Shown here: piece after piece, positions 5,064 through 37,875 of the stretch
Numbering within the stretch: the first letter of the stretch is position 1
Layout: every line of letters begins with the position of its first letter
Assembly (NCBI GenBank): GCA_963716925.1
Contig: CAVQUX010000015.1
Span: 308,104-372,103, forward strand
Origin: an uncultured Acidobacteriota bacterium
GTDB lineage: Bacteria > Acidobacteriota > Vicinamibacteria > Marinacidobacterales > SMYC01
Length of the DNA stretch: 64,000 nt
Reading direction: 5' to 3'
The notes under the pieces: generated by a model
Told to the model about the DNA's origin: nothing
Databases searched by the model: none
Seen by the model: the letters and a program-made list of their open reading frames with translations, nothing else
Program-made: the position numbers and the translations under genes

Positions 5064-5077
5064 AGTCCGCTTTCGTC

Positions 5078-10523: not shown

Positions 10524-10528
10524 GACGC

Positions 10529-14520: not shown

Positions 14521-14594
14521 TGAATTACTATGGACCCGGCCGCGCGGCGCGTGCGAACGCCTCAGCGAAGGCACCGGACAGACAGGGGGTGGGT

Positions 14595-16670: not shown

Positions 16671-16863
16671 CCTTGGCCTCTGTCGCACCGGCGCCCATCG
16701 CTCGAGCTTCCGTAGGACGCTCGAGAAGCCACTTTGCGGCATTGAGGAGAGATCGCCCCTTCAGGTTCGCCTCAGGTCGCGGCGAGCAAATAGTAAGTCG
16801 ATTGACAGAGTGTCATCCGGCGCGTTGTTCCGCGCAAAGGACTCGACATGTGATCGAAAGGCC

Positions 16864-19411: not shown

Positions 19412-20063
19412 TTCTGTTTCGAGTGGCAACCTGGATACGCCGCGAACACCGAGAATTTCCGAGTTCCACGCCCATGCAGGTCAGCATCCGGTTCCCCGAT
19501 CGTGGGCAGCCACCACGTTTCCCGCAGCGGGGGCTCAGGATCGCTCGGTGAGCTGGACCCGGATGAGCAGCCGATCCGCGTACTTGAACGAATCGACGAG
19601 TTCGATACCGAAGACGATCACCGCAGCCGCGTGCGCAACGGCGTCGCCCAGTGATGCGGCCGGAAGTGGAGCGACGTCGCGGTCACTGCTAGCAACCCCA
19701 ATAACGAAGGAATCACCACTACGGCATCGAAGGTTGCACGCCGCCAGTAGCTGCCTCCCAAGTGCAGCCAGAGTCCGAACTCGTCAAAGGTCAAGGCCAG
19801 ACTCCGTATAAGAGCGCGACGCTTCGAAGGTGTCGCGCATTCGGGCAAGTAAAGAGCAGGTACGCACCGACCGCGCCGGGTCGCGTTATCTCCCTTGTGA
19901 GCAAAGCGGGGCGGCAGTTGGCGGCAGTTTGTCCAGGCGGGGCGACGCCCGCGAACAGCCTTCGCGGGCAAGTCGTTCTGCAACGGTAAAGTCTTCGCCG
20001 TGTTGCTTGGCACTGCGTTTGCACAGATCAACAAACGAGGGTGCAGAAGAATGAGAGGTTCCC

Positions 20064-20987
20064 ATGAGACATACGAAAGCAGCTAGCACTCTACTGGCGA
20101 CGATGGCGATTTTGGTCTCTGGCTCGCCGGTCATGGCGCAGTCGCGCCACGGCTATAACCACGGGGGTCGATCGATGAGCTACCAACCTCATTATTATCG
20201 ACCCTACGGCTATGGACCTCGGGTCGGTTTCTACGGTTACTTCGGCGCTCCCTACTACCCGTACTACTGGCCCTATTACGGTGGCCCCTTCTATCCGGGC
20301 TACTACGGGTACTACGGGTCCTACAGCCCGTGGGCTTCCTTCCGTATCGAGGTCAAACCCAGAGAGGCGAACGTTTACCTCGACGCCTACTACGCCGGCA
20401 TCGTGGACGACTACGACGGAGCGTTCCAGCGACTCAACGTGCCGCCGGGCAATCACGAGATCGCGGTGTATCTCGAGGGGTATCGGACCATCCGACAAGC
20501 CCTCTACGTGAGCCCCGGGAGCTCCTACAAGATCAAGCAAGAGATGGTTCCTCTGGCCCCGGGTGAGGCGCAGGAGCCACCGCCGGAGGCGGCGCCGCCG
20601 GACGAGTTCACCGGGAACGAGCCTCCCGCGGTCATGACTCCCCAGGCACAGCTCACGCCGGCTCCGACGATGCCTTCGACACCCCCGGCGGCGGCCGCCG
20701 TGTCGGAGCCAGCCGATTTCGGAGTCCTGGAAGTGCGGGTGCAGCCTTCCGGCGTTCGCCTGCGTATCGACGGAGAGCCTTGGCTGGCCGAGCCTGCAGG
20801 TCCGGTTTCCATCCATCTGCCTCAGGGACGCCACCGAGTCGAGATCGAGAAGGAAGGCTTTCAGTCCTTCGCGGGCGACGTGGTCGTGAGCTCCGGGAGG
20901 ACCACGACGCTGAACGTGAAGCTGTCTTCGAGCAGATCGTTCGAGGAACCACAGGATCGATCGTTGCTCGTCAGGGGCTCCGAGTGA
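20064..20987 (+). CDS. secreted PEGA-domain protein with a Tyr/Gly/Pro-rich low-complexity N-terminal region
   Basis: Signal peptide; YYRPYGYGPRVGFYGYFGAPYYPYYWPYYGGPFYPGYYGYYGSY; two PEGA-like beta-sandwich segments (FRIEVKPREANVYLD..., LEVRVQPSGVRLRIDGEP...). Confidence 0.6.
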   Translation: MRHTKAASTLLATMAILVSGSPVMAQSRHGYNHGGRSMSYQPHYYRPYGYGPRVGFYGYFGAPYYPYYWPYYGGPFYPGYYGYYGSYSPWASFRIEVKPREANVYLDAYYAGIVDDYDGAFQRLNVPPGNHEIAVYLEGYRTIRQALYVSPGSSYKIKQEMVPLAPGEAQEPPPEAAPPDEFTGNEPPAVMTPQAQLTPAPTMPSTPPAAAAVSEPADFGVLEVRVQPSGVRLRIDGEPWLAEPAGPVSIHLPQGRHRVEIEKEGFQSFAGDVVVSSGRTTTLNVKLSSSRSFEEPQDRSLLVRGSE

Positions 20988-21380
20988 GCCGGCGATGCGA
21001 GTCCAGAGGGAGAACGGGGGAGCTTCGGAGAGGCTGAAGCAGGAAGGACCAGAAAATTCCGCGAGCCACGCTCGCAGTCCGGATTGGATTGAACAAAGGC
21101 GGCGGTCGACGTTCAGCGTCTTCGTCGGGCGCCGCCGAGTTTCACTAGAAAACCCAGCTCACGGCTTGCCGTTCTTCGCGGACTGTCGCCGTCGTTTCCA
21201 CCTCCCGAACACGACTTCTCCGTCTGTTTTGGCCCACCGAACAGTTCTTGGCACTTTGCGCGTTCTCCTCTGTTCCGCGGGGATGTGACCTCATTCGAGC
21301 ACACCCACCCTGAAAGTTGTAGCAACGAGCATCGCGGCAAATACGTGTCGTGTTTGGCCCTCGTGTGCACCCCAACGCCT

Positions 21381-21396
21381 TGGCACCGGAATTGCT
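21381..21396 (+). promoter_or_regulatory. candidate sigma54 (-24/-12) promoter TGGCAC-N5-TTGCT
   Basis: Match to YTGGCACG-N4-TTGCW; 30 bp upstream of the BON-gene ATG; a sigma54-dependent activator is encoded at 58760-60280. Confidence 0.45.
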
Positions 21397-21425
21397 CTAC
21401 TTCATTGCAGAGAAGGAGAAGAGTC

Positions 21426-22169
21426 ATGAGAACTACATCACCCATTCTGGCGATCATCCTGGCGGGAGCGCTGGACCTCTCCCCTACGGTGTCCGCCGCG
21501 GACCAGACGAACGACGCTACAATCCGTGCGAAGGTCGAAAAGAAGCTCCAGTCCGAACAACTGACGAACCTGACCGGTCCTTCCGTCGAAGTGAAAGACG
21601 GCATGGTCATTCTGACGGGACGGACCGAGACCCTGTATTCCAAGGACAAGTCGGTCGCCGCGGCGATGGGGGTCGAGGGTGTCACCGGCGTCCAGGACCG
21701 CCTGGAGATCCCGAAAGGCGAGAGCGATCCGAAGGTCGCGGAGGCTATCACTCGAGAGGTGCGCCGCTACCCGTTCTTCACCATCTATGACGACGTGAAC
21801 CTGCTGATCGACGATGGCAACGTGACGCTCGTGGGGCGCGTGACCATGCCCTTCAAGTCGAACGAGATCGCCGAACGGGTCTCGAAGCTCGCGGGCGTGC
21901 AGAGCATCAAGAACGAGCTCGAAACGCTCCCGACGAACATCGGAGACCAGAGACTCCGGGCGGTCCTCGCCCACCGGATCTACGGCAACCCATCATTTCG
22001 CGAGTACGCCTCGATGGTCAATCCGCCGATCCACGTCATCGTCGAGCACGGACGCGTCGCGCTGACCGGCGCCGTCCGATCCGAGGTGGAAAAGCGCCAG
22101 GCGGAGGTCATCGCCCGCTCCACATTCGGCGTCTTCTCGGTCGACAACCGTCTCGTGGTTGCGAGCTGA
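21426..22169 (+). CDS. BON-domain (OsmY-like) periplasmic protein, three BON repeats
   Basis: Signal peptide MRTTSPILAIILAGA; repeated ...V.V.DG.V.L.G.V... BON pattern. Confidence 0.7.
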   Translation: MRTTSPILAIILAGALDLSPTVSAADQTNDATIRAKVEKKLQSEQLTNLTGPSVEVKDGMVILTGRTETLYSKDKSVAAAMGVEGVTGVQDRLEIPKGESDPKVAEAITREVRRYPFFTIYDDVNLLIDDGNVTLVGRVTMPFKSNEIAERVSKLAGVQSIKNELETLPTNIGDQRLRAVLAHRIYGNPSFREYASMVNPPIHVIVEHGRVALTGAVRSEVEKRQAEVIARSTFGVFSVDNRLVVAS

Positions 22170-22357
22170 AGGCGGCGCTCGGTTGACGCCCGCCCGGGGG
22201 AAAACGGGTTCGCTCCTCTGCACCCTTGCGACGAAGTGGACCTCCCCGGGCGGGCGCTCGCGAGTCTCTCGTATCGAGCGCGTCTGGGACATGTATTTCG
22301 ATGTCCAGCCGGACTCCACGTTCACGATACGGGACACGATGGGCACCCCCCCGGCAC

Positions 22358-22374
22358 ATTAACGGAAGTTAATC
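22358..22374. promoter_or_regulatory. ATTAA-N6-TTAATC dyad motif (site 3 of 7), perfect palindrome ATTAAC-N4-GTTAAT
   Basis: cATTAACGGAAGTTAATCtgcgcCTCACG, about 100 bp upstream of the STAS gene. Confidence 0.5.
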
Positions 22375-22470
22375 TGCGCCTCACGATCCGCTGAACCGTG
22401 TCTCGTAGTATTTGCTTCATGATCACGAGATCGACTGCCGCATCAACCAAAAGGGGTTAGTCACACGTTG

Positions 22471-22815
22471 ATGAACATCGAGCAACGGAGCGTCGGGGAC
22501 GTCATCGTGCTGTCGATCCGGGGCGATATCACGATGAATGGAACTGGGGCGACTCCGCTGGCAGACAAAGTCCGAAGCGAGCTCCAGCAAGGTCGCGATC
22601 GCTTTGTGCTCGATTTGCGGCACGTGCGCTACGTAGACAGCGCGGGACTCGGGGAGCTCGTGCAGGCGTTCTCTGCCGTGCTGAACCGAGGCGGAGCGAT
22701 GAAGCTCCTCAAGGTGACCAAGCGGCTGAAAGACTTGCTCGTGGTGACCAAGCTCCTGACCACGTTCGCATGCTTCGAAGAAGAATCAGAGGCGCTGGCC
22801 AGCTTCGAGCCTTAG
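22471..22815 (+). CDS. STAS-domain anti-sigma-factor antagonist (SpoIIAA/RsbV-like)
   Basis: 115 aa; conserved DSAGLGEL motif around the phosphorylatable Ser. Confidence 0.7.
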   Translation: MNIEQRSVGDVIVLSIRGDITMNGTGATPLADKVRSELQQGRDRFVLDLRHVRYVDSAGLGELVQAFSAVLNRGGAMKLLKVTKRLKDLLVVTKLLTTFACFEEESEALASFEP

Positions 22816-23213
22816 CCGGCGCTTTGCTGAGGGAGATCGATAAAGCCCCACAACGGGTTAGGCCGCGCGACGCCGCCGCGGCCCACCGGAGCGTCCGGTG
22901 AGATGTCCCGTCCGCGGGGTCTTCGTCGCGCCCAGGGCAGTCGTGGAGGCGGAAACCATCGTCGAGCGGGGGTTTCGCTCCTTGGAGCATGTGGGCGCCA
23001 GCGTCGCGCGCATGCTCCGCGTGCCCATGGCCGCCTTTGCCCGAGACGCCGGCGCGAGTCGCACGCTCGAGCACGGACCGTCCACGAAGCGGCAGCCACG
23101 GTTCTTCTCGGGGCAATGCTCCTGGTGGCGATTCGCCTCACGGCCGAGTGGTTCAAGCGCCTTGGCGATAACCGCGCGGTGTCTCTGGCGAGTGGTCCGA
23201 TTACGGAATTGGC

Positions 23214-24994
23214 CTAGGCGTTTTCGGGACGGTCATCCGCGTTACGGTTGGACGGCTCCACGGGGATCCTTCCCGCAACGTTGAAGGCAGCGCCATCGGT
23301 GATTGCCGATGCGTGGGTTGTCGTCAGCGGCTGCGAGTGTTCGAGGCCGACGAGTGTCCACCCGGCCGCCTCGCGGCGGAAGTAGGCACGTACGGGAACC
23401 GCCCAGGCAGGACTCGCCGGCGCCAGCGCACGGATGTCAACGCGCACGAACGCGCCGACGTCGCTCGGAAGCGCAGTCGGGGCGCTTGCGCTCGTGGAGC
23501 GAGTCTCGGTGACGTCGCCCAGTGGAGCGGCGTCGCCCGTCGCGTTGTCGAACCGGTACCAGGCGACGCGGTACGAGGAGGGTGCGGTCGCAACGCCGCT
23601 ATCGACCGCGGCGTTGTGGAAGGTCAGCAGGCCGGTATCATCCAACGATGGGGCGACGATGGGGTTGATCTTGGTCAGGAAGGCCCGACCAATGGCGTTG
23701 CGACGCCCGACCAGTGTTTCCACCAGGTAGTCCTCGGCCGCCGGGTCACTGAATTTCCCGCTCTTCACCGCCGCCGCAATCATCGGCTCGGTGACCGCCA
23801 TGACCTTGCGCGCCGCCCAGAACGTGTCGTCCGGCTGGGCGCGGAGGTACGCGGCGTTCGGCACCCGGCTCCGCCACGATTCGGGGTCGAAGCGATCCGC
23901 TTCTATCCGACCGACCCCGCGGAGGTTCGGGTAGGGGATGGTGCGCCAGTCCTCGATGGGGAATCCGAATCCCAGAAGCTTCTTGAGAAGCGGTTTGCCG
24001 GCGTAAAGGTATTCGTAGCCTTCCCAGTACTCATTGGGAGCGATCCCGGCGCTACCGAGCGTCGATCCGAAGTCGAGCACGTGATGGCGGACGATCGTCT
24101 TACCATCGACAGTGACGAGCGTGTCGAGCGTGTTGCCCGCTTTCGCATCCACCCGGTCGATCCAGGCGGCGAACACGTCCATCGCGCGCAACTCGCGCCG
24201 GTTCTCGTGGGGCACGATGTCGTTGGGATCGTCGGCGCGGGTGCCATAGTACAGAAATTCTCCCACCGGCTTGCCGTCGAGCGCTTTGCTCGTGATCGCA
24301 CGATAAGCTGCCGTCGGGGCTCCGGTCCACCAGAGCCAGCACCCGGTCGACGTCGCTGGCCGTCAGCCGTCGCCGTTTGCCATGCACCGTGATGGTGGCG
24401 TCCGGGCCCACCACCAGGTCCCCGCGGCGAATCGTCACCACGTGCGTCTCCGCGACGTAGTAGCCAAGGGCCCAGAACAGCTTCGTGGCCACGACTTCCG
24501 CTCCGGTGGCCTGTTCGGGGTACCCCGGGGCGTCGAACTTGATGAACCAGAGGACTCCGGCCGCGTCCCGGATCGTGAAACCCGGCCTCACGCCCTCCGA
24601 CTTTCCGGACACGACGGTCCAACGGCCGCACCGGTCCGTCCGTGGTGTCCGGGCCTCTGGCGACGTCCGCCAAGGACAGCGTTCGAGATCCGACGCGATT
24701 CGTGAACCAGCTGGAATCGGGAACCTCGTCGATGGTGTTGACGTTCCGTGCGCGTCCCCGGGTCGGATCGCCTTCCTTGACGAACAGGCTGGAAAGGATG
24801 TCCCACGACAGGTGGATCGGGAACGGTCGTACGTGCGACGCGTCGGCCGGGTCCGGTTCCCGCGCGATCGGATCGTCGTGAAAGAACGCGGGTCCCGCGG
24901 CCGACAGGGGCGGACTGAGCAGTACCGCGAGCGCGATTGCGGCGCCGGCACGGCGAGCGCATCCGTGGAGGTTGGGAAGCCTTGGAGTCATCAT
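23214..24994 (-). CDS. hypothetical secreted protein with a possible kinase-like catalytic motif, at least 2 frameshifts
   Basis: Signal peptide MMTPRLPN...AIALAVLLSPPLSAAG; segments WFIKFDAPGYPEQATGAEVVATKLFWALGYY and GNTLDTLVTVDGKTIVRHHVLDFGSTLGS resemble PI3/4-kinase or HipA-type folds; this assignment is uncertain. Confidence 0.35.
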
Positions 24995-25002
24995 GATCCA
25001 CC

Positions 25003-26166
25003 TCAGAAGCTGACAGTGCGCGCGAAGTTGTAACGCCAGCCCTCGACGCTGTGGGCCACTTCGAGACGGAGCGCGGTGTAAGTCGAGCCGTGAAACCGGG
25101 CGCCGATACCCCATCCCCGCTTCAAGTCGTGCAGGTCGAGCGCACCCGCGCTTGCGGCGACGGTTCCGTGGTCGAGGAAGACCGCCATGTCGACCAGCGG
25201 GGACGGTGTCCAGCGCAGCTCGCACCTCAGGAGCAGGCTGTTGTTGTCCGTGAAACGGTAGTCTGCGAACCCGGGAAGCGTGTCCCGCCCGCCGATCCAG
25301 GGCAGCATGAAGAAAGGGATGACCTGCCCCTGCGCCGACGAGGCCAGGTCGGCTCGCGCCTGCAGGGCGATGATCCAGTTGTTGTGAAGGAGGGGCACGA
25401 ACTGCCGGAGGTCGATCTCGGTTCGGGTGAAGTCGGCAGCGGTTCCGCGGCCTGCGTAGTCGTGGAAGCCGACGCGGTACAGGCCGCCGGAACTCGTGTA
25501 CCCGGGCGATTGGCGCGAATCGACCGCCGCGTACGCCGTAGTGTGCCACCATTCCGCGGTCGAGCTCGTACCGATAGTCGGCGCGTCTCCGGTCCCCTCG
25601 CTCGATTGGACGTCCAGATAGCTCGCGCCCACGCCGTATCGGAACCACCGGGCGCTGCGGGCCTGCACTTCGCCGCCGACTTCCGTTGTCCGCAGGCCGT
25701 AACTCACCCCGTCATCGATCGAAGTGCCGGTGCCGAGTCCAAAGAACTGAAGTTCTGGAGCGTCTTCCCACCTGGCAACGGCGCGTACGCGCACCCGGTC
25801 GGTGGCCAGGGGCGGTATGTCCACCGCCGTCTCCACCTCCTTGAAGTGCTTCACCGACCATGCCGCCGAAACGTCCCACAATCCACGCTCGCCCACGGGC
25901 ATCTCGTAGCCAACGCCGAGGGCGAAGCCGCCGCCGGGCCGAAAATCACCGAAGTGGAGGCGGATGGCCGGTGGCGCCGGCAGCAATATGTGCTCGAGCT
26001 CGGTGATGATGACGTCACCCTTCTCGCGCGTTTCGGGCTTCACGTCAGCGGCCTTGGCTGCTTTCTCGTCACTGATCTGTTCAGCACGTGTTGCTTGCGC
26101 CCAGGCACGAGGTGCCATGAGCCAAGCGATCAGCCAAAGGGCGGCTCCGGGGTACCTGCGCGGCAT
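25003..26166 (-). CDS. outer-membrane beta-barrel protein (hypothetical)
   Basis: Signal peptide; alternating amphipathic beta-strand pattern; C-terminal ...RYNFARTVSF ending in Phe; intact 387 aa ORF. Confidence 0.55.
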   Translation of the reverse strand: MPRRYPGAALWLIAWLMAPRAWAQATRAEQISDEKAAKAADVKPETREKGDVIITELEHILLPAPPAIRLHFGDFRPGGGFALGVGYEMPVGERGLWDVSAAWSVKHFKEVETAVDIPPLATDRVRVRAVARWEDAPELQFFGLGTGTSIDDGVSYGLRTTEVGGEVQARSARWFRYGVGASYLDVQSSEGTGDAPTIGTSSTAEWWHTTAYAAVDSRQSPGYTSSGGLYRVGFHDYAGRGTAADFTRTEIDLRQFVPLLHNNWIIALQARADLASSAQGQVIPFFMLPWIGGRDTLPGFADYRFTDNNSLLLRCELRWTPSPLVDMAVFLDHGTVAASAGALDLHDLKRGWGIGARFHGSTYTALRLEVAHSVEGWRYNFARTVSF

Positions 26167-26223
26167 GTCTGTTCCTCCACCGTGGATTTGACGCGAAAAG
26201 ACTGATGCGAACGTGAAGCCGCG

Positions 26224-26240
26224 ATTAATTCGGATTAATC
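26224..26240. promoter_or_regulatory. ATTAA-N6-TTAATC dyad motif (site 4 of 7)
   Basis: gcgATTAATTCGGATTAATCC, same flank as sites 1 and 2. Confidence 0.45.
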
Positions 26241-26267
26241 CCCGTCGTCCGTTGGTGGTCGCCGGTC

Positions 26268-26284
26268 ATTAAAAGGAGTTAATC
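26268..26284. promoter_or_regulatory. ATTAA-N6-TTAATC dyad motif (site 5 of 7)
   Basis: gtcATTAAAAGGAGTTAATCgg...tCACG, same flank as sites 3, 6 and 7; tandem with site 4, about 75 bp upstream of the PAP2 gene. Confidence 0.45.
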
Positions 26285-26358
26285 GGGGTTTCACGTCGCG
26301 CTCACGCGGGTTGCTGCGTAATACACGGAGACACACGAGCGTGTCGAGGAGAAGCGAC

Positions 26359-27297
26359 ATGACGTCATCTGGAATGATCCTGGTTCTTGCTGCGGCGCTG
26401 GGCGTGCCCGCCACGGGGCGAGCGTCGTCGAGGGACGACGGGAGCGTCGCAGAAACGGACCGCACGCGGCAAGCGGAGCCGGCCCAGCCCCCAGTGGAGG
26501 ACGGTGCTGTGTTGCCGAAGGAGCAGTCGCCGGCGATCGACCCATCGCAGACCAGAGCGGCCGAGGAGGACGTGCCGCAGGACGGGAAAACCGGATTACG
26601 CACGCTTTTCCGTGATCTTGGCAGCGACTTCGCGCACCTGCCGTCTCGCGATTCGCTCTTCGTCGCCAGCATAGGGGGTACCGCCGCTCTCGCCCTGCAC
26701 CCGTTCGACGCGACGTTCAACGAGCACCTCCAAGACTCATCGTTCTTCAGCGCTGGCGATCGGCTCGGAAACACGTTCACGCTCATGGGCGCGACGTTCG
26801 CCGTGTACGGCGTCGGGCTCGCGACCGGCCATCATCGCGTCACCCACGTGGCGATGGACGTGGTGCGAGCGCAGCTCGTGAGCGAAGCCCTGGTGCAGTC
26901 GTTGAAGGTGGCGGTGCGCCGGGAGCGGCCGGACGGCAGCAGCGGCTATTCGTTTCCGTCCGGCCATGCGGCGGTGACGTTCGCCACCGCCACCGTGCTC
27001 CAGCGGCATCATGGCCTCAAGTGGGCCCTGCCGGCCTACGGGCTGGCGACGTATGTGGCCATGTCGCGGCTTCACGACAACGTGCACTACCTGAGCGACG
27101 TCGTCTTCGGGGCGACCATCGGTACGCTGGTCGGGCGGACCGTGACTCGACACGGCCCCCAGAACTTCGCCTTCATGCCGATGGCGGTACCTGGCGGCGC
27201 GGCGTTTGTCGTCCTGTACTCACCCAGAGGCTCAATAGAGTGCGGCTTCAACGGACCTCGCCGAGTACCGCTGCGGTTCGCCCAGTCCAGTCATTAA
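26359..27297 (+). CDS. PAP2-family (acid) phosphatase
   Basis: KVAVRRERP, FPSGHAA and SRLHDNVHYLSDV motifs (KxxxxxxRP / PSGH / SRxxxxxHxxxD). Confidence 0.75.
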   Translation: MTSSGMILVLAAALGVPATGRASSRDDGSVAETDRTRQAEPAQPPVEDGAVLPKEQSPAIDPSQTRAAEEDVPQDGKTGLRTLFRDLGSDFAHLPSRDSLFVASIGGTAALALHPFDATFNEHLQDSSFFSAGDRLGNTFTLMGATFAVYGVGLATGHHRVTHVAMDVVRAQLVSEALVQSLKVAVRRERPDGSSGYSFPSGHAAVTFATATVLQRHHGLKWALPAYGLATYVAMSRLHDNVHYLSDVVFGATIGTLVGRTVTRHGPQNFAFMPMAVPGGAAFVVLYSPRGSIECGFNGPRRVPLRFAQSSH

Positions 27298-27441
27298 GGG
27301 AAGTTAAGCGGTCGCTCACGCTCCGATCATCGGCGAGAGGTCAAATGGAGTTGAGAGCATCCAGCGGTGCAGCGCCGGTGGCTCGGTGAGCCTCGGGCGG
27401 TGCCGCGAAAAAAGAGGAGAGACGTCATGAGACTTCGCCGT
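27288..27441 (+). repeat. about 155-bp upstream cassette (promoter, 5'UTR, RBS and first 5 codons MRLR), copy 1 of 2
   Basis: GTCATTAAGGGAAGTTAAGCGGTCGCTCACGCTCCGATCATCGGCGAGAGGTCAAATGGA...GCGGTGCCGCGAAAAAAGAGGAGAGACGTCATGAGACTTCGCC is near-identical to 34458-34610. Confidence 0.7.
27293..27309. promoter_or_regulatory. ATTAA-N6-TTAAGC dyad motif (site 6 of 7)
   Basis: tcATTAAGGGAAGTTAAGCggtcgCTCACG. Confidence 0.45.
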
Positions 27442-28041
27442 AGGAGTCAAGAAATGCTCATCCGACCCTTGAAGATCCACTGGTTTCCGGCCGCTTTGAT
27501 CATCGGCTTGCTCGGAGCGGCCTGCGCCGAAGCTCCCGAGAGCGAGGAAAAAGACGCGAAATCGGCGATCGCGATGGCCCGCGCCGCCGAGGCGGCAGTC
27601 TACGCCCCCGACACCCTCGCCCTTGCCGAAAAGGCGATGACGGATGCCGCCCGAGCGATAGACACCGAAGCGCACCGCTTCGGTCCGATGCGCAGCTACA
27701 GGGAAGCCTCGAGACTTCTCGAAGAAGCGAAGACCCGCGCCGATGAAGCGAAGGCTCAGGCGGAGCAAGAGCGCGAGAAGTGGATGCGTGACGCGAAATC
27801 CGCCGTCGCTGATGCACGCAGCGGGCTCGAGCAGGCGAATGCGGCCCTCGCCAAAGCGCCGAGACAGCTCGCGCAGCAGCCCGAGATGAAGAAGAGGGGC
27901 GAGGACTGCGAGAAGCTGCTCTATGACGCGGAGAAGGCCTTCGACGCCAAGAGCTACAAGGACGCCGCGGAGAAGGCCCGAGACGCTCAAGCCGCGGCGG
28001 ACGACCTTGTCGAGAGCCTCCTGGTGGGTTTCCGAGGGTGA
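27427..28041 (+). CDS. hypothetical lipoprotein, Ala/Lys/Glu-rich coiled-coil
   Basis: Signal peptide with lipobox LLGAAC; helical low-complexity body. Confidence 0.5.
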   Translation: MRLRRRSQEMLIRPLKIHWFPAALIIGLLGAACAEAPESEEKDAKSAIAMARAAEAAVYAPDTLALAEKAMTDAARAIDTEAHRFGPMRSYREASRLLEEAKTRADEAKAQAEQEREKWMRDAKSAVADARSGLEQANAALAKAPRQLAQQPEMKKRGEDCEKLLYDAEKAFDAKSYKDAAEKARDAQAAADDLVESLLVGFRG

Positions 28042-28165
28042 GCTGGGGAGTTTCCCAGGTGCGGGGTCCCGTATCGGTGGATAAGGTTCACGACCGGGGG
28101 CCTATCCGTCTCGCCTGTGCGAAGTGGACCATTTTCTACGCCGAAAGGCGCGAAGGAGAGGGGTG

Positions 28166-28582
28166 ATGCAGAGTGCGGTCTTGGTTGCCGGGAAGAGAAG
28201 CGCGGCCGTGGCTCGACGGGTCGAGAAGGTTTGGTCCGTCATACTCGCCGACGGCGAGGGAACGCGGATCAAGCCGTTCATCGAGATGTGGTTCGGCGAC
28301 GGCCGCCCGAAGCAGTACTGCACTTTCACCGGAACGCGCTCGCTCTTTCAACATACCGTCGACCGAGCGGACTCCTTGGCGCCGCAGGCCCAGCGAATCG
28401 TGGTGGCGGCAGCTCACCACGACCGGTACGTCCGCGAACAACTCGGCGATAGGGAGGGACGAGTGCTCTTTCAACCCCGCAATCGTGGCACGGCGCCTGG
28501 AATCCTCCTTCCGCTCACCTACGTCCTCGCGCTCGCCCCGGAGGCTCTCGTCGTCATTTATCCATCCGATCACTTCGTCTAG
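28166..28582 (+). pseudogene. N-terminal fragment of a sugar-1-phosphate nucleotidyltransferase (ManC/GMP-like), truncated after 138 aa
   Basis: ILADGEGTRIKPF...GRPKQY...NRGTAPGILLP...VIYPSDHFV then a stop; no continuation detectable in 28583-28899. Confidence 0.45.
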
Positions 28583-28899
28583 TCGCGCGAACTCGGATTG
28601 CGGATCAAACGAGCGATGGATAGGAAACGCTTGGGACGAGGGTTGCCCGCGCCACATCAATCACTCCGAACGACGCTCGAGCGCCTCGGCGTCTTTCGGT
28701 ACGGAGCGCAGGCGAGAGCCGGGCGAAAGATCAGGTCGGGGCCCGGTTGGAACGCTGACCCGGGAGTTCAGGGAAATGAAGGAATACGAGTTCGGCCCAG
28801 ACATCCTGCCTCTAGCATTCGAACGGTTCGTCTTCGCGGTTCACCCGCAGGTCGCTGTTGACCGGGGCGGAAAGACTCGCGCAGACAGGAGATTCGTCC

Positions 28900-29592
28900 A
28901 TGGATCCAATCACCATCATCGGCGTGGCCCTGGTGGCCATCGTTTCCATCACCAGTCACGAGGCGGCCCACGGTTTCGTGGCCGATCGTTTCGGCGATCC
29001 CACGGCGCGCGAGCAGGGGCGCCTTACCCTGAATCCGCTTCCGCACATCGACCTGTTTTTCACAATCCTGCTTCCGCTCGTGTTGATCCTGTCCCGCTCG
29101 GGCTTCATCTTCGGAGGCGCCAAGCCGGTTCCGGTGAACGTGTCGCGGTTGCGGAACCCTCGACGCGACTGGGCGCTGGTGGGCGCCGCGGGGCCGCTCA
29201 TGAACGTGCTCATCGCCCTCGTGCTTACGGTCCTGCTCTCGGCCGCCGCGCACCTCGGCCTCGCCGATGCGTCTTCGAGCCTGACGGAGATCCTCTCGGT
29301 GGGTATCTTCCTCAACGCGCTGCTCGCGATTTTCAATCTCATCCCGATTCCTCCCCTCGACGGGTCGCGAGTGCTCCAGTACTTCCTCTCCGGGGAGAGT
29401 CTCGACCTCTACCGGCGCGTCGAGCAGTTCGGCCTGTTGATCCTCATCGCCCTCCTCTTCCTCGTCCCATCGTTCCAGTTCTTTCTGGCGGACGCGATCT
29501 TCGGGCTCGTCGCGATTATCACGGCGCCGTTTGGCGTGTGGGCAGACGTCGAGCCGCTGCTCCGAAGTCTTCTATTTCCGCCCGGTACGTGA
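28900..29592 (+). CDS. site-2-protease-type M50 metallopeptidase (small membrane form)
   Basis: HEAAHG (HExxH) and [10 protein letters not shown] motifs; 231 aa, 4-6 TM. Confidence 0.75.
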
Positions 29593-29638
29593 TGGACGAC
29601 TCCGCGTTGTAGACTCGTACCGCGGATCGAGAACGAGC

Positions 29639-31770
<2,132 letters not shown>

Positions 31771-31901
31771 TTGTCAGAGATTCAGGAAGCGGCCGACGTG
31801 AACGCTATCAACGCGTTATCGACACCCGGGTCCTCCGCGACGGCTTGCGGGCATGAGTCTTGCGCATGATCCCAACGGTGGGGGAACGAAAGGGTGGAAA
31901 A

Positions 31902-32780
31902 ATGAGACGAATAGGCGCTCTCGAATTTGCCTTCGCGCTGATGCTTGTTCCCGGCCGCTCGATGGCGGGCCAGGAGGCGCTCTATACCGACGGAGAGCTC
32001 GAAGATTGCCTCCTGGCCGACCTGTCGCATCTCGACATCCACGGTCTCGACGTCCGGGTCGTCGGGGGCATGGTCGACGTTTCGGGCGAAGTGGGAAGTC
32101 TGGCCGAGAAGAAGGAAGCGGAATCGACGATAAGGCGAAGATCGCAGGTGCGCGACGTCTCCAACGAGCTTCGAGTGGCGCAGGTTCCCGATGCCGAGCT
32201 GCAGCGAGACGTCCTGGCGGCGCTCGAGGACAGCCGCCACTACACGATTTACGACGAGCTGAGCGCATCCGTCTCCGGAGGTGTCGTGACTCTCGCCGGT
32301 CGCGTGCCTCGGGACAGCGCTCTCGACGGAGTCGTGAGCGACCTGTCAAAGGTGCGGGGCGTCCGCGCGATCCAGAACGAGGTGCGAATCCTTCCCTACA
32401 CTCCGGAAGAGGAAAAGCTGCAGGAAGGGGTAGCCATCGACGTCTCGGCGGCTCTGGTGAAGCTCGATCGACGAACTTCTTCCCTCCATGTCGTCATCGA
32501 GAACGACACGGTCACTTTGAGCGGGATGGTCGGGGACGACATTGCGAGGAGAGCCGCGGAAGAGGCAGCCCGTCGATCGGCAGGCGTAAAAGAGGTACAG
32601 AATCGGCTCCGGATCGGGGAGCCCTGGACGCGACCGCGATCCTCGATACCGGAAGACTCTATCGATCGCGGCACGGAGCTTGCGAAGGCTCCCCGCGCCA
32701 CGGCTGCCCGCGCCTTTGCACGGCAGGACGGGTCACACCGCTATGCGGGGATAGACCTGGGCAGCAATGATCACAAGTAG
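31902..32780 (+). CDS. BON-domain periplasmic protein (three or four BON repeats)
   Basis: Signal peptide MRRIGALEFAFALMLVPGRSMAG; repeated BON-like segments. Confidence 0.65.
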   Translation: MRRIGALEFAFALMLVPGRSMAGQEALYTDGELEDCLLADLSHLDIHGLDVRVVGGMVDVSGEVGSLAEKKEAESTIRRRSQVRDVSNELRVAQVPDAELQRDVLAALEDSRHYTIYDELSASVSGGVVTLAGRVPRDSALDGVVSDLSKVRGVRAIQNEVRILPYTPEEEKLQEGVAIDVSAALVKLDRRTSSLHVVIENDTVTLSGMVGDDIARRAAEEAARRSAGVKEVQNRLRIGEPWTRPRSSIPEDSIDRGTELAKAPRATAARAFARQDGSHRYAGIDLGSNDHK

Positions 32781-33029
32781 AGTCGTGGTCGAAAGGAGCA
32801 GCAGGAAATCCGTGCCAATGCCAAAGATGCTGGTTCCTCCCGCAATCATGAAAGCTCGAAGCACATCGACCTCGTAGCTGAGCGGGTTGATCCGCGCAAC
32901 GAGACGCAACCAATCGGGCATGATCGCCAACGGGTAGATGGCGTTGCTGGCGAAGAATAGAGGCATCGTCAGGATCTGCCCGATCCCCATGAACCGCTCG
33001 CGAGTCTTGACGATGGCTGCGATGATCAA
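32733..33029 (-). pseudogene. C-terminal fragment of an ABC-2-type transporter permease
   Basis: Last 2-3 TM helices only (…INPLSYEVDVLRA…); no upstream remainder of the gene; overlaps the 3' end of the BON gene. Confidence 0.4.
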
Positions 33030-33099
33030 CGAAAGGGTGGCGAAGCAGCCGCGCCACCGCTATGTGCGCGCGGGGCGGACTGCTTTCCTCTCACGGGAC

Positions 33100-33847
33100 G
33101 TCGGGAGTGGCGCGGCCCGCCGCGCTCCTCTCCGACGATGAGAAACAGCCATTTGACCAGGCGGGTGGTCACCTCCTCGACATGCAGCGCCGGGTGGGCC
33201 GTCTGGATGAGCTCGGTCGTTCGGCCGAAGTACGTCCCAACGCCGGTCGCCACGACGACAGCGGTGGCCTCACCCCGACGAACGCTCGATCCGGAGTAAA
33301 CGGCTTCGTCCGCCGCCCTTTTGGCCTCCTGAGATTCTCCCGTCAGTGCAGACTGGTCCACCCGCAACTCGCCCTCGAGGATGAGTGCGTCGGCGGGGAC
33401 GATATCCCCCGCACGCACGCGCACCACGTCGCCTTTCACCAGCTCACGCGCTGCGAGAGGCTTCCAGGTCCCGTCGCGAAGCACTCGAGCCGTGACCTGG
33501 AGCCGGCGCCGAAGAGCGGACACGGCCGCCGAGGCGCGTTGCTCGTGCAGGAAACCGAGGGTCGCGTTCACCGTGAGCAGCGCGAGGGCGTTCCAGAAGT
33601 CAGCCCGCTTGTCGAGAATGAGGGAGAGGGCCACGATCAGCTCGAGCATCCACGCGGAAAGCCCCCAGAATTTGCTCGCGAGTCGAGCGAGCGGGTGAGC
33701 GCTCTTCTCGGGAACCTCGTTCGCACCCTCCCGGTCCAGCCTGAGCCTCGCCTCGGCAGCGGTCAGACCGGCCTCGCGGCTCGAGCCGAGGAATTGAATG
33801 GCGTCCGTCGCGGACTGGACCGGTTTGTGCGGTTCGATATCGGGCAT
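33100..33847 (-). pseudogene. N-terminal fragment of a P-type ATPase (PMA/H+ or Mg2+ type): TM1-2 plus actuator domain only
   Basis: GLTAAEARLRLDREGANEVPEK, TM helices, VLRDGTWKP...GDIVPADALILEG...ALTGES, then loss of homology; no DKTGT region follows. Confidence 0.5.
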
Positions 33848-33915
33848 CACCACGGCGGAGCTCGTCAGGTCGGTCCTCGGGCGACGAGCACGCGGATTGA
33901 CTCCAACGCGTCTGA

Positions 33916-34110
33916 GAGAGCCTCAGCGGGCTCGATCTTCAGAGTGAGCTCGCCAGAGCCGGGGCGTGTATTCCCGTCATTTTCGTCACCGGTCACGGTG
34001 ACATCGCGATGTCCGTGCGGGCTATGAAGGCCGGCGCGGTGGAGTTCTTCACGAAGCCGTTCCGCGATCAAGACCTTCTCGATGCGGTTCAAGACGCTAT
34101 CGAAGGCGGC
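33916..34110 (+). pseudogene. C-terminal half of a FixJ/NarL-type receiver domain (fragment)
   Basis: ESLSGLDLQSELARAGACIPVIFVTGHGDIAMSVRAMKAGAVEFFTKPFRDQDLLDAVQDAIE; in-frame stop immediately upstream; no HTH follows. Confidence 0.45.
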
Positions 34111-34140
34111 GCACGTCGAGCACCAGGCAGTCGGGAACGT

Positions 34141-34257
34141 CTCCGGTTGCTCCTGGTGCAGGAACTCCTGCGCCGAGCCGAAAGTCCCGACGCCGAGCCC
34201 CACCGAGCGGAGGAGACTGCTGAGTGCTTCGCGAATAGGTGGGGCGTCATCAATCAC
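34141..34257 (-). pseudogene. N-terminal 39 aa of a FixJ/NarL-type receiver domain, on the opposite strand and head-on to the previous fragment
   Basis: MIDDAPPIREALSSLLRSVGLGVGTFGSAQEFLHQEQPE; the two halves converge at about 34115-34140, implying an inversion breakpoint inside one receiver gene. Confidence 0.4.
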
Positions 34258-34457
34258 ATACTGGCTCGGCTTCCTTCATGACCGACGCTCTGGCCTCTTC
34301 GCACCTAAGTGCAGTCTTACCACGACCATGTCAACAGGGATCGGCCGCGGGACCGGCGACCGAACCGAGGCGACGAGAAACAGGTTCTCCTGCCTTGCTC
34401 TTCCCTGTGCTCTCTCGGGCCAGTCAGCTCCCCGCGCACCCCCGGAAAGCGGGCAAG

Positions 34458-34610
34458 GGGGTCATTAAGCGGAGTTAATCGGTCACTCACGCTCCGATCA
34501 TCGGCGAGAGGTCAAATAGAACTGGGAAAACGGTTCGGCGTTGCGAGTGGCTCGGCGTTCAGCGCGGTGCCGCAAAAAAGAGAAGGAGAGACGTCATGAG
34601 ACTTCGCAAG
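34458..34610 (+). repeat. about 155-bp upstream cassette, copy 2 of 2 (see 27288-27441)
   Basis: GTCATTAAGCGGAGTTAATCGGTCACTCACGCTCCGATCATCGGCGAGAGGTCAAATAGA...GCGGTGCCGCAAAAAAGAGAAGGAGAGACGTCATGAGACTTCGCAAG. Confidence 0.7.
34464..34480. promoter_or_regulatory. ATTAA-N6-TTAATC dyad motif (site 7 of 7)
   Basis: gtcATTAAGCGGAGTTAATCggtcaCTCACG. Confidence 0.45.
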
Positions 34611-35231
34611 ATGGTGAACGCGTCGATGGTCGCCCTGGGGCTCGGCCTCGCCGCTCTGCCCGCGCTCGCGCGGGACAAGCCCCGATCCGCGGTCGACGAG
34701 ATTCGCAAAGAGCTGCTCCAGCTGCCGTATTACGGGGTGTTCGACTTTCTGGCGTTCAAGTACGACCAGGGATCCCTCACCCTGATGGGCTACGCCTATC
34801 GGCCCGTTCTGAAGAACGATGCCGAGAGAGCGGTGAAGCGGGTGGCTGAGGTCCAGACGGTGGAAAACCAGGTCGAGGAATTACCTCTGTCGCCGAACGA
34901 CGACAGTCTGCGTTGGCAGGTGTACTACGCGATCTATCGCGATCCCTTCCTGTCACGCTACGCACCCGGAGGCGGGCTCCTGTGGGGTCACCGGCATCCA
35001 TTCCTCGCCGGCACGTTCCTGCCGCTCGGGCCGAGTCGGTTCCCGGGCACCGAGCCGGCGGGCGACTACCCGATTCACATCATCGTGAAGAATGGCCGGG
35101 TCTTGCTGCTGGGAGTAGTGGATTCGGAGTCGGACAAGACAATCGCGGGTGTGCGGGCGCGAGAAGTGCCAGGTTCGTTCGCGATCGACAATGAGCTCGC
35201 TGTCGATCATCCGCCGTCGGGCAAGACGTAG
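34596..35231 (+). CDS. BON-domain periplasmic protein (two BON repeats)
   Basis: Signal peptide MRLRKMVNASMVALGLGLAALPALA; YGVFDFLAFKYDQGSLTLMGY and IHIIVKNGRVLLLGVVDSE BON-like segments. Confidence 0.6.
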   Translation: MRLRKMVNASMVALGLGLAALPALARDKPRSAVDEIRKELLQLPYYGVFDFLAFKYDQGSLTLMGYAYRPVLKNDAERAVKRVAEVQTVENQVEELPLSPNDDSLRWQVYYAIYRDPFLSRYAPGGGLLWGHRHPFLAGTFLPLGPSRFPGTEPAGDYPIHIIVKNGRVLLLGVVDSESDKTIAGVRAREVPGSFAIDNELAVDHPPSGKT

Positions 35232-35366
35232 GGGCGGAGTTGAAGGTGCAATCGGTGTTTTCAGTGGAAGAAATCGCAGGCTTGATCGCTGGTAGGTCGG
35301 CGTTCTTCGCCGGAAGGCCGCGCCCGTTGGCGCGAGCTGACCGAGGAGGAATTCCGGTCAATAAAC

Positions 35367-35380
35367 GTCCCGTACGGGAC
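35367..35380. promoter_or_regulatory. perfect 14-bp palindrome GTCCCGTACGGGAC, 13 bp upstream of the ATG (operator or 5'UTR hairpin)
   Basis: Seen directly, between the 35367 site and the RBS AGGAGA. Confidence 0.35.
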
Positions 35381-35392
35381 ACAAGGAGAAAG

Positions 35393-35974
35393 ATGATGGT
35401 ACATCGAATCATGTCGGTAGTGAGCCTCGGCGCCCTTCTTACGCTGTCGGCCGGTATAGCCGCGGCGCAAGAGAAGAAATATGAAGGCGAAATCGTCACC
35501 GTCGATACCAAGGACTACACTTTCACCGTCAAGGGTACGGCGAAGGGAGAAGTCGCCGAAATGAAGTTTCACGTCGGCAGGGAGAGCGAAGTTGTCGTCG
35601 ACGGCGAACGGAAGATTTTCGCGGAGCTCGGCAAGGGAGATCAAGTGACCGTCGAGTATGGAACCTCGGACGGAAAGCACACGGTGAAGCGCGCGGAGCG
35701 ACACAAGACCGCCGCGAAGGAGATGGCGCTCACCGGACAGGTGATCGCCGTTGATGCTGCCGCCCACACGTTTACCGTAAAGCGGAGCCAGGGCGGGCCG
35801 GTGGAGGAGATGAAGTTCCACGTCAACCCGACGACGCGGATCTATATCGGGACAGATCATCTCGAGCTCCTGAAACAGCTTCAGAAGGGAGACGACGTGA
35901 CCGTGCACTACATCAACGAGAGCGGAAACCAAATGGTCAGGCACGTAAGCAAGGCGAAGGCCAAGACGACCTGA
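35393..35974 (+). CDS. small secreted tandem-repeat protein (two repeats of about 75 aa), unknown function
   Basis: Signal peptide; repeat 1 EGEIVTVDTKDYTFTVKGTAKGEVAEMKFHVGRESEVVVDGE...; repeat 2 LTGQVIAVDAAAHTFTVKRSQGGPVEEMKFHVNPTTRIYIG... Confidence 0.6.
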   Translation: MMVHRIMSVVSLGALLTLSAGIAAAQEKKYEGEIVTVDTKDYTFTVKGTAKGEVAEMKFHVGRESEVVVDGERKIFAELGKGDQVTVEYGTSDGKHTVKRAERHKTAAKEMALTGQVIAVDAAAHTFTVKRSQGGPVEEMKFHVNPTTRIYIGTDHLELLKQLQKGDDVTVHYINESGNQMVRHVSKAKAKTT

Positions 35975-36122
35975 GCCCGTCAGACCGAGAAGCTCGGGAC
36001 CGTCGCCGCGCCAGCGGCGGCGGTTCCGATGCGGGCTCGAAGAGAACGATAGGAAGAGGTCGTCAGACTAGTCGAAGCCCAAGCTGCGCCTCGGATGTCC
36101 AATCCTCTGAGGGCAAGAAATC

Positions 36123-37798: not shown

Positions 37799-37875
37799 TA
37801 GGTCCTTCGCCCTAGCAAAGGGAAGTTCCGCATTTCCCTATTTTGCCCCTCCGAGACTTCGCGTCGGGAGACTTT

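What the first reader, a model, noticed from the sequence alone, without database searches (positions are those of the whole stretch)
32733..34260. Junkyard or rearrangement scar: ABC-2 permease tail, P-type ATPase head, and a receiver domain split into two oppositely oriented halves
Four gene fragments lie within 1.5 kb with no intact gene among them:
- a C-terminal piece of an ABC-2 permease
- the first about 250 aa of a P-type ATPase
- the C-terminal half of a FixJ-type receiver domain on the plus strand (33916-34110)
- its N-terminal 39 aa on the minus strand (34141-34257)

The two receiver halves are head-on, so an inversion breakpoint falls inside one former response-regulator gene. This could be real decay plus inversion, or it could be a chimeric join in the assembly.
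Basis: seen in the sequence. Interest (0 to 1): 0.55.

Follow-up and report, generated by a model that had tools for sequence, protein, structure and literature searches.

The report
Dead gene remnants in strain-specific DNA
This 1.5 kb stretch holds the broken leftovers of three ordinary genes: a transporter tail, a proton-pump head, and a signalling-protein domain with its middle flipped. It sits in a 31 kb block that a nearly identical relative lacks, so it is real but ordinary genome wear, not a new system.

Summary
- **ABC-2 permease:** 32733-33041 (-) holds only its last ~100 codons.
- **Proton pump:** 33131-33847 (-) holds codons 1-239 of a plasma-membrane-type H+ P-type ATPase of about 820 aa.
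- **Response regulator:** the two receiver pieces are complementary parts of one FixJ-family gene.
  - The N part (34279-34109, -) reaches the phospho-acceptor motif LDVR.
  - The C part (33919-34105, +) begins two residues later.
  - Rejoined in silico, they match Pfam Response_reg 1-111/111.
- **Missing or absent:** the LuxR-type output domain is gone. No inverted repeats flank the flipped ~190 bp.

An independent k-mer (Logan) contig, seen in two samples, spans 33266-34515. It encodes the identical junction-spanning ORF. This argues against an assembler misjoin for the inversion and for the receiver/ATPase junction. The ATPase/ABC-2 junction could not be confirmed independently.

The whole locus lies in a 31 kb segment (5066-36114). 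That segment is absent from a 98-99% identical relative and carries other truncated genes. The assembly is probably Nanopore-only and has many 1-nt indels, so the frameshifts are weak evidence of decay.

Verdict: a genuine, non-functional rearrangement scar. Low interest.

The parts
32733..33041 (-). 3' remnant of an ABC-2 type permease gene: the last ~102 codons plus the native stop codon. About the first 165 codons are missing.
   Evidence: Pfam ABC2_membrane 150-209/211 and ABC2_membrane_3 260-346/347. Aligns to residues 169-244 of the 274-aa permease PDB 8tsh_C. No N-terminal remnant anywhere in the window.
33042..33130 (.). About 89 nt of unassigned filler between the ATPase head and the ABC-2 tail.
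   Evidence: No frame continues either homology. The ATPase reading frame runs through it for 35 unrelated codons to a stop at 33026-33028.
33131..33847 (-). 5' remnant (codons 1-239 of about 820) of a plasma-membrane-type proton-efflux P-type ATPase. It is cut at the start of TM3, before the DKTGT phosphorylation site.
   Evidence: Pfam Cation_ATPase_N plus E1-E2_ATPase 3-126/181. Closest full-length relatives are 70-76% identical and stop aligning at residue 239. No trace of the rest of the gene in the window.
33848..33918 (.). About 71 nt spacer between the ATPase start codon and the left end of the inverted receiver segment. It contains the left inversion junction.
   Evidence: Read directly from the sequence. 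No match to receiver, linker or HTH positions of the FixJ-family profile in any frame.
33919..34105 (+). Inverted segment: receiver-domain residues SLSGLDLQ...DAVQDAIE of a FixJ-family response regulator (profile positions 61 to about 123).
   Evidence: Custom profile hit of 111 bits, E=1.5e-35. Pfam Response_reg 55-111. The conserved T (VTGHGD) and K (TKPF) residues are present.
34109..34279 (-). N-terminal part of the same receiver (profile positions 1-58), from ATG 34279 to the phospho-acceptor motif LDVR. Two 1-nt frame changes interrupt it, one between 34258 and 34279 and one near 34141-34146.
   Evidence: Custom profile hits at positions 6-49 and 47-58 in two minus-strand frames. Pfam Response_reg 4-41. 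The reconstructed protein gives Response_reg 1-111/111.
5066..36114 (.). Context: a 31 kb strain-specific segment that contains the finding. It is absent from a 98-99% identical relative, where the VirJ and MprF stop codons lie 9 nt apart.
   Evidence: blastn of L085 against the window. Junction sequences. MprF-VirJ adjacency in 44 of 80 other genomes.

Best explanation
The locus is a non-functional scar left by illegitimate (homology-independent) DNA breakage and rejoining. It lies in an accessory, strain-specific part of the chromosome of a soil bacterium, probably Vicinamibacteria (Acidobacteriota).

**What was destroyed.** Three former genes are affected: a FixJ-family response regulator, a plasma-membrane-type H+-ATPase and an ABC-2 exporter permease.

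**Shown by the data.**
- A segment of about 190 bp inside the receiver domain is inverted in place.
- One breakpoint falls two residues after the phospho-acceptor Asp. The other falls at the end of the receiver domain.
- The DNA-binding output domain is missing.
- The ATPase is cut after codon 239.
- The permease retains only its last ~100 codons.
- Short unrelated filler sequences sit at the joints.

**Inferred.**
- The ATPase and permease remnants lie on the same strand. One deletion that removed the 3' two-thirds of the ATPase, any genes in between, and the 5' part of the permease explains both.
- The inversion and the loss of the output domain form a second event, with breaks rejoined in the wrong orientation and one piece lost.
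- None of the remnants can work. The receiver is split, the pump lacks its phosphorylation and nucleotide-binding domains and eight transmembrane helices, and the permease lacks more than half of its membrane domain.
For: 1. Fragment identities and extents come from Pfam, a custom FixJ profile, 120 full-length ATPase homologues and a solved ABC-2 permease.
2. The receiver halves are complementary, covering profile positions 1-58 and 61-123. They are physically adjacent (34105 and 34109). Joined, they match Response_reg 1-111/111 at 78 bits. Homologues 73-76% identical cover 94-99% of the joined sequence in one alignment.
3. At maximum sensitivity there is no trace of the linker/HTH, the ATPase tail or the permease head anywhere in the region.
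4. An independent k-mer contig (Logan, ERR12036778, 1250 nt, seen in 2 samples) carries the exact 130-aa ORF 33865-34257. The next gene starts 18 nt later and runs to the contig end, so the contig corresponds to window 33266-34515. A neighbouring Logan contig covers 34486-36378. The break between the two contigs coincides with a 32-nt exact repeat.
5. Codon-usage scores of the fragments resemble those of neighbouring genes. There is no GC, GC-skew or tetranucleotide discontinuity.
6. The locus lies in a 31 kb segment missing from a 98-99% identical relative.
7. Other truncated genes occur in and beside that segment. They are an MgtA-like ATPase head at 5711-7180, an NTP_transferase head at 28124-28582, and a DUF1003 tail with a ~45 nt filler at about 37.8 kb.
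Against: - The ATPase/ABC-2 joint (33029-33131) was not found in any independent assembly.
- The Logan contig probably derives from the same reads as the source assembly. It excludes assembler and polishing artefacts, but not every library artefact.
- No close relative carrying an intact version of the locus was found. RR homologues reach at most 76% identity and ATPase homologues at most 76%, and their gene neighbourhoods differ. The ancestral arrangement and the single-deletion idea are therefore inferred.
- The 89-nt filler means the deletion was not a simple two-ended loss.
- The assembly is indel-rich: 29 indel differences from the relative in 16 kb of shared backbone. The two frameshifts in the receiver may be sequencing noise, although the one near 34141 is reproduced in the Logan contig.
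Confidence: 0.75

Rival explanations
1. Assembly or library artefact. The fragments would be joined by a chimeric path, a chimeric read, or a mixed-strain consensus in a long-read metagenome assembly, and the organism would not carry them in this arrangement.
For: - The source appears to be a Nanopore-only metagenome assembly. Its relatives are ENA 'contig_N' records, and the Microflora Danica long-read project used Flye plus one round of Medaka (PMC12313526).
- Genes in such contigs are often split.
- The window differs from a 98-99% identical relative by 29 mostly 1-nt indels in 16 kb, clustered at 39.6-43.3 kb.
- The ATPase/ABC-2 joint has no independent confirmation.
Against: - An independent k-mer assembly recorded in two samples reproduces both inversion junctions and the receiver/ATPase adjacency exactly.
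- There are no repeats at the junctions that could mislead an assembler.
- A random chimera would not place complementary halves of one domain 4 nt apart.
- The composition is native.
- The 31 kb segment returns exactly to the flanking backbone. That pattern fits a real insertion/deletion polymorphism, not a misjoin.
Confidence: 0.12
2. The two receiver pieces are remnants of two different, convergently oriented response-regulator genes. Each would have been truncated by a deletion between them, so no single gene was inverted.
For: FixJ-family regulators are very abundant in this lineage (about 8000 close homologues). Relatives of the neighbouring BON gene often have two receiver genes nearby.
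Against: The pieces cover profile positions 1-58 and 61-123 with no overlap and only two residues missing. The plus-strand piece lacks both its own N-terminus and its own output domain. This rival therefore needs three coincident truncations, where the inversion model needs one.
Confidence: 0.05
3. A programmed, reversible intragenic inversion (an inverton) that switches the response regulator off and on. The assembly would have caught it in the off state.
For: Inversions inside coding sequences exist and are found with long reads (PMC10028968). The flipped segment lies inside a regulatory gene.
Against: - No inverted repeats lie at or near the two boundaries. The best local alignment scores below the shuffled mean.
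- No recombinase or invertase domain appears in any ORF scanned across the window.
- Two codons are lost at one joint.
- The output domain is absent, so flipping back would not restore the gene.
Confidence: 0.03
4. One or more remnants are functional short genes, for example a 273-aa ATPase N-terminal protein or a truncated receiver acting as a decoy.
For: The ATPase head retains an intact ORF of 273 aa with no internal frameshift. The fragments are well conserved relative to intact homologues, at 70-76% identity.
Against: - The exact proteins form single-member clusters at 90% identity among about 15 billion proteins, so the truncated forms are not conserved anywhere.
- The short ATPase hits found elsewhere are frameshift-split or contig-end pieces of full-length genes.
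- The ORF tail is 35 codons of unrelated sequence.
Confidence: 0.03

Closest known systems
Gene remnants (pseudogenes) in the accessory, strain-variable regions of bacterial chromosomes
   Same: Truncated and inverted pieces of ordinary housekeeping or transport genes, with no mobile-element genes. They lie in a segment present in one strain and absent from a 98-99% identical one.
   Different: The pieces are unusually fresh, 70-76% identical to intact homologues with the catalytic residues kept. They are densely packed and separated by 45-90 nt fillers.
FixJ/NarL-family two-component response regulators (receiver plus LuxR/GerE helix-turn-helix)
   Same: The receiver sequence is 73-76% identical to family members. 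It retains the acidic pocket (DD), the phospho-acceptor D in LDVR, and the conserved T and K residues.
   Different: The receiver is split with its second half inverted, the GerE output domain is absent, and the reading frame is broken.
Plasma-membrane proton-efflux P-type ATPases (type IIIA) of bacteria
   Same: The N-terminal domain, TM1-2 and actuator domain are 70-76% identical to full-length 800-840 aa proteins carrying that annotation.
   Different: Only 239 of about 820 residues remain. There is no phosphorylation site, no nucleotide-binding domain and no TM3-10.
Intragenic invertons (PMC10028968)
   Same: A short DNA segment inverted inside a coding sequence.
   Different: No flanking inverted repeats, no invertase, codons lost at the joint, and the gene cannot be restored by re-inversion.

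Membership tests
FixJ/NarL-family response regulator | Complete receiver domain with phospho-acceptor Asp | tested here: inconclusive
   All receiver positions except two are present, and the in-silico rejoined sequence matches Response_reg 1-111/111. In the genome, however, the domain is split onto two strands and frame-shifted.
FixJ/NarL-family response regulator | C-terminal LuxR/GerE helix-turn-helix output domain | tested here: not met
   A profile of 114 full-length homologues, run with filters off on six frames of 31800-35000, finds nothing for positions 126-207.
FixJ/NarL-family response regulator | Uninterrupted open reading frame | tested here: not met
   There are two frame changes in the N-part, and the C-part lies on the opposite strand.
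P-type ATPase, type IIIA (H+-efflux) | Phosphorylation motif DKTGT with P and N domains | tested here: not met
   Homology ends at residue 239, before TM3-4 and the P domain. tblastn with full-length and tail sequences finds no further piece.
P-type ATPase, type IIIA (H+-efflux) | N-terminal cation-ATPase domain and actuator (E1-E2) domain | tested here: met
   Pfam PF00690 and PF00122. The head is 70-76% identical to full-length proteins annotated as plasma-membrane proton-efflux ATPases.
ABC-2 type transporter permease | Full six-helix membrane domain (about 250-270 aa) | tested here: not met
   Only profile positions 150-209/211 are present, aligning to residues 169-244 of a 274-aa solved permease.
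Inverton (site-specific invertible segment) | Inverted repeats flanking the invertible segment | tested here: not met
   The best local alignment between the two boundary regions scores 12, against a shuffled mean of 15. No inverted repeat appears there.
Inverton (site-specific invertible segment) | Both orientations present in the population | not testable with these tools
   This needs the raw reads. Only one orientation is seen, in the source contig and in the Logan contig.
Inverton (site-specific invertible segment) | Nearby invertase or recombinase gene | tested here: not met
   No recombinase, integrase or transposase domain appears among the roughly 85 ORFs of the window scanned against Pfam.

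The most novel reading that the evidence does not exclude
The scar may be one of several traces of a single mechanism: end-joining of multiple breaks, or capture of DNA fragments with one homologous anchor and one illegitimate end. This mechanism would have built or reshaped the whole 31-33 kb strain-specific block.

The same signature recurs at least four times in or at the edge of the block. It consists of a gene cut mid-domain and joined through 45-90 nt of unrelated filler, or through 3-6 nt of microhomology. The sites are the MgtA-like head, the NTP_transferase head, the ABC-2/ATPase/receiver cluster, and the DUF1003 tail.

The adjacent VirJ gene is 6.3% diverged from the relative, against 0.7-1.7% in the flanks. 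If this reading holds, the window would document small-scale shattering and re-ligation, or homology-facilitated illegitimate recombination, in an uncultured soil Acidobacterium.
Probability: 0.15. Interest if true: 0.4.

Novelty: already known. Interest (0 to 1): 0.15.

Why it matters
It matters mainly for annotation. The three ORFs that gene callers make here (273, 130 and 85 aa) are remnants, not genes, and should not seed protein families.

It also gives a worked example of how to judge an odd junction in a long-read metagenome-assembled genome without the reads. Two resources did the work: an independent k-mer contig and a 98-99% identical relative.

The wider context has modest interest for people who study how accessory DNA is gained and decays in soil Acidobacteria. 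That context is a 31 kb strain-specific block rich in truncated genes. It is not a new biological system.

Tried and rejected
1. **Repeats or inverted repeats at the junctions.** None beyond chance.
2. **RNA genes.** No tRNA and no Rfam family in the window.
3. **Terminator and promoter scans of the locus.** Nothing above the shuffled expectation.
4. **Partial duplication of another gene in the window.**
   - The other P-type ATPase (about 5.7-7.2 kb) is only 35% identical to the head, so it is not a parent copy.
   - No other ABC-2 or FixJ copy is present.
5. **Synteny in GTDB species representatives, using VirJ as the query.** The best hit was 64% identical and there was no shared neighbourhood.
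6. **Neighbourhoods of the closest ATPase homologues.** Usp, ECF sigma or BON neighbours, never a FixJ regulator or an ABC-2 gene.
7. **A hybrid query to reach full-length ATPases.**
   - The query joined the window's head to a homologue's tail.
   - The first search listed nothing longer than 422 aa.
   - The hybrid search found no near-identical parent, with a best identity of 75.7%.
8. **Exact junction 28-mer in JGI metagenomes.** No match.
9. **Relatives of the neighbouring BON gene in JGI metagenomes.**
   - They are 59-77% identical.
   - Nine of about 36 loci of at least 3 kb have a FixJ regulator within about 4 kb downstream of the BON gene on the same strand.
   - In the two loci annotated with Pfam (L143, L159) it follows an AraC regulator and an ETR1_N histidine kinase.
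   - This suggests the regulator remnant is a vestige of that neighbourhood.
   - The identity to the remnant is only 61-65%, and position and strand differ, so I did not rely on it.
10. **Logan look-ups for the ATPase head, the ABC-2 tail and a guessed partial product.** Nothing on record.
11. **A codon-usage Viterbi segmentation to count frameshifts.** Too noisy in this 65% GC sequence to use on its own.
12. **Confirming that the source is a Microflora Danica MAG.** The accession numbers were not in the held supplements.
Full report
**Observation.** ORF listing and direct reading, followed by Pfam, confirm four gene fragments and no intact gene between 32733 and 34279.
- An ABC-2 permease tail: ABC2_membrane profile positions 150-209 of 211, on 32733-33029, minus strand.
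- A P-type ATPase head: Cation_ATPase_N plus E1-E2_ATPase 3-126 of 181, on 33026-33853, minus strand.
- The C-terminal half of a receiver domain on the plus strand: Response_reg 55-111 of 111, on 33916-34110.
- The N-terminal part of a receiver on the minus strand: Response_reg 4-41, on 34141-34257.

**Anatomy of the response regulator.**
- I built a profile from 114 full-length FixJ-family homologues found. I searched all six frames of 31800-35000 with HMMER's filters off.
- The minus strand carries profile positions 6-49. After a one-base frame change near 34141-34146 it carries positions 47-58 (GDVPDCLVLDVR), ending at 34109. The N-terminal piece therefore reaches the phospho-acceptor aspartate.
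- A start codon at 34279 (MKEAEP) is out of frame with the receiver by one further frame change.
- The plus strand carries positions 61 to about 123 (33919-34105; 111 bits).
- Only two residues (M-P of the DVRMPG motif) are missing between the pieces, and the two pieces end within about 4 nt of each other.
- Joined in silico, they match Pfam Response_reg from position 1 to 111 in one stretch (78.4 bits). They align over 94-99% of their length to homologues that are 73-76% identical.
- The simplest reading is that about 190 bp inside a minus-strand gene was inverted in place.
- Every full-length homologue carries a GerE/LuxR helix-turn-helix. No trace of profile positions 126-207 exists in any frame, so the output domain has been lost.
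- The two boundary regions share no inverted repeat. The best local alignment scores below the mean of shuffled controls.

**Anatomy of the ATPase and permease remnants.**
- The first homology search returned only proteins of at most 422 aa. A hybrid query joining the window's head to a homologue's tail reached full-length proteins of 766-955 aa, where named annotated as plasma-membrane proton-efflux P-type ATPases.
- Against these, the head is at most 75.7% identical. In 85 of 120 cases the alignment stops exactly at residue 239, which is coordinate 33131, at the start of the third transmembrane helix.
- tblastn with full-length ATPase, ATPase-tail and ABC-2 sequences finds no further piece of either gene in the window.
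- The ABC-2 remnant aligns to residues 169-244 of a 274-residue solved permease and keeps its native stop codon.
- About 89 nt (33042-33130) between the two remnants, and about 71 nt (33848-33918) between the ATPase start and the inverted segment, match nothing.
- The ATPase head and the permease tail lie on the same strand. One deletion could have made both, but the filler shows the joint is not a simple two-ended loss.

**Is it real or an assembly artefact?**
- The source contig (533 kb, in NCBI and ENA) could not be fetched. Exact-protein look-ups in the Logan collection of k-mer assemblies were informative instead.
- The 130-aa ORF 33865-34257 (minus strand) starts in the N-terminal receiver piece. 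It runs through the frame-change site and the right inversion junction, then through the whole inverted segment in antisense and past the left junction.
- That exact ORF is present on a 1250-nt Logan contig from run ERR12036778, recorded in two samples. The next gene starts 18 nt later and runs to the contig end.
- This layout corresponds exactly to window 33266-34515, with the ATPase start at 33847.
- A second Logan contig corresponds to 34486-36378. The 30-nt overlap and the break between the two contigs coincide with a 32-nt exact repeat shared with 27.3 kb.
- An independent assembly method therefore reproduces both inversion junctions, one of the frame changes, and the receiver/ATPase adjacency.
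- The ATPase/ABC-2 joint could not be confirmed. The 273-aa, 85-aa and a guessed 89-aa partial product are not on record.
- There is no GC, GC-skew or tetranucleotide discontinuity at the locus. Codon-usage scores of the fragments resemble those of neighbouring genes.

**Context from a close relative.**
- The VirJ-like protein at 36123-37613 has a cluster mate of at least 90% identity. It lies on a 197 kb ENA contig (locus L085).
- That contig aligns to window 47271-37861 at 98.3%, to 37811-36115 at 93.7%, and then directly to 5065-1 at 99.3%.
- The 31 kb between 5066 and 36114, which contains the finding, is therefore absent from the relative. There the VirJ and MprF stop codons are 9 nt apart.
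- A Logan contig from another run shows the same empty site. MprF lies next to VirJ in 44 of 80 unrelated genomes.
- The segment carries no recombinase or transposase domain in the ORFs scanned.
- It does carry further truncated genes. Another is an NTP_transferase head at 28124-28582.
- Just outside the segment, DUF1003 has lost its first ~115 codons, which are replaced by about 45 nt of unrelated sequence.
- VirJ differs from the relative by 6.3% with no indels, against 0.7-1.7% in the flanks.
- A cluster mate of at least 90% identity to a backbone protein is annotated Vicinamibacteria. That suggests the organism's lineage.

**Caveat on frameshifts.**
- The window contains many genes broken by 1-nt frame changes. 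These include glgX (about seven changes in 2.2 kb), a Ser/Thr kinase, MprF, a MacB-type permease, an OmpR-type regulator and an oxidoreductase.
- Many long genes are nevertheless intact.
- Across 16 kb of shared backbone, the window and the relative differ by 29 indel events, 22 of them within 39.6-43.3 kb.
- Where the frame can be judged, one or the other assembly is intact. MprF and the oxidoreductase are whole in the relative. OPT is whole in the window, whereas the relative's gene call for it is only a 251-aa piece.
- Related ENA 'contig_N' assemblies show the same split-gene pattern. The Microflora Danica long-read project, whose MAGs dominate the related hits, used Nanopore-only Flye assemblies with one round of Medaka (PMC12313526).
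- I could not confirm that the window comes from that project.
- I therefore treat single-base frame changes as weak evidence of decay. The structural lesions (inversion, truncations, missing domains) are the robust ones.

**Comparison with known things and verdict.**
- The pieces belong by sequence to three well-known families, but none meets the defining requirements of a functional member.
- The inversion resembles an intragenic inverton only superficially. It has no flanking repeats and no invertase, codons are lost at one joint, and re-inversion would not restore the gene (PMC10028968 for the known class).
- The best explanation is an illegitimate-recombination scar in accessory DNA (confidence 0.75).
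- An artefact confined to the unconfirmed ATPase/ABC-2 joint, or a library-level artefact, remains possible (0.12).
- The finding is real but ordinary, and interest is low.

Noticed in passing
window 5066-36114: A 31 kb segment is absent from a 98-99% identical relative (L085). In the relative the VirJ and MprF stop codons are 9 nt apart. The junctions share only TCCGC/TCCCGC microhomology. No integrase or transposase was found in the segment.
   Followed up: partly
window 36115-37811: The VirJ-like gene differs from the relative by 6.3% (107 substitutions, 0 indels), while the flanking backbone differs by 0.7-1.7%. This looks like an imported allele next to the 31 kb segment.
   Followed up: partly
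window 37613-37860: DUF1003 is 5'-truncated. About 390 nt present in the relative are replaced by about 45 nt of unrelated sequence containing a small hairpin (GGGAAGTTCCGCATTTCCC).
   Followed up: partly
window 29531-31770: A glycogen debranching enzyme gene (glgX: CBM_48, alpha-amylase and Isoamylase_C domains) is spread over three reading frames with about seven frame changes. It sits in a patch of 70% GC against 62-64% around it.
   Followed up: partly
window 39600-43300: An indel hot spot: 22 of the 29 indel differences from the relative fall here, in an oxidoreductase, a PD40/Tricorn-like gene and a Ser/Thr kinase. At the kinase sites examined the relative is in frame and the window is not. 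It is unresolved whether these are real mutations or consensus errors.
   Followed up: partly
window 5711-7180: A second truncated P-type ATPase (MgtA-like; N-terminal, actuator and part of the nucleotide-binding domain). It has one frame change near 6050 and nothing after about residue 490.
   Followed up: partly
window 28124-28582: An NTP_transferase head (profile positions 2-112 of 245) ends in a stop codon and is followed by an apparently complete M50 peptidase gene. This is possibly another truncated gene.
   Followed up: no
window 22355, 26265, 27290, 34461 (+ strand): The motif GTCATTAANNGNAGTTAA occurs four times, against 0.13 expected. All copies lie inside the 31 kb segment and upstream of STAS, PAP2, DUF4398 and BON genes. 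It is probably a shared promoter or operator of a stress regulon.
   Followed up: partly
window 34461-34600 and 27290-27431: A leader of about 140 nt, 78% identical between the two copies, includes a 32-nt exact repeat and the first four codons (MRLR) of the BON and DUF4398 genes. No Rfam match.
   Followed up: partly
window 35240-35974, 3-368 and 5081-5560: The first two are paralogous small secreted proteins, 72-73% identical to each other. The third is a similar-looking small signal-peptide protein with a weak DUF5666 match. One copy sits at the right edge of the 31 kb segment, one beside the backbone SDH-protease gene, and one just inside the left edge.
   Followed up: no
window 14514-15267: An OmpR-type response regulator is split by one frame change near 14842. 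The receiver and the Trans_reg_C domain lie in different frames, upstream of an intact histidine kinase.
   Followed up: no
L143 and L159 annotated with Pfam; FixJ regulator also detected downstream of the BON gene in L097, L139, L160 and others (JGI soil metagenomes): Relatives of the BON gene at 34596 often have a FixJ regulator within about 4 kb downstream on the same strand. In the two annotated loci the order is AraC regulator, ETR1_N-type histidine kinase, FixJ regulator, single receiver and sigma-54 activator. This is a conserved neighbourhood of which the window keeps only the BON gene and the regulator remnant.
   Followed up: partly
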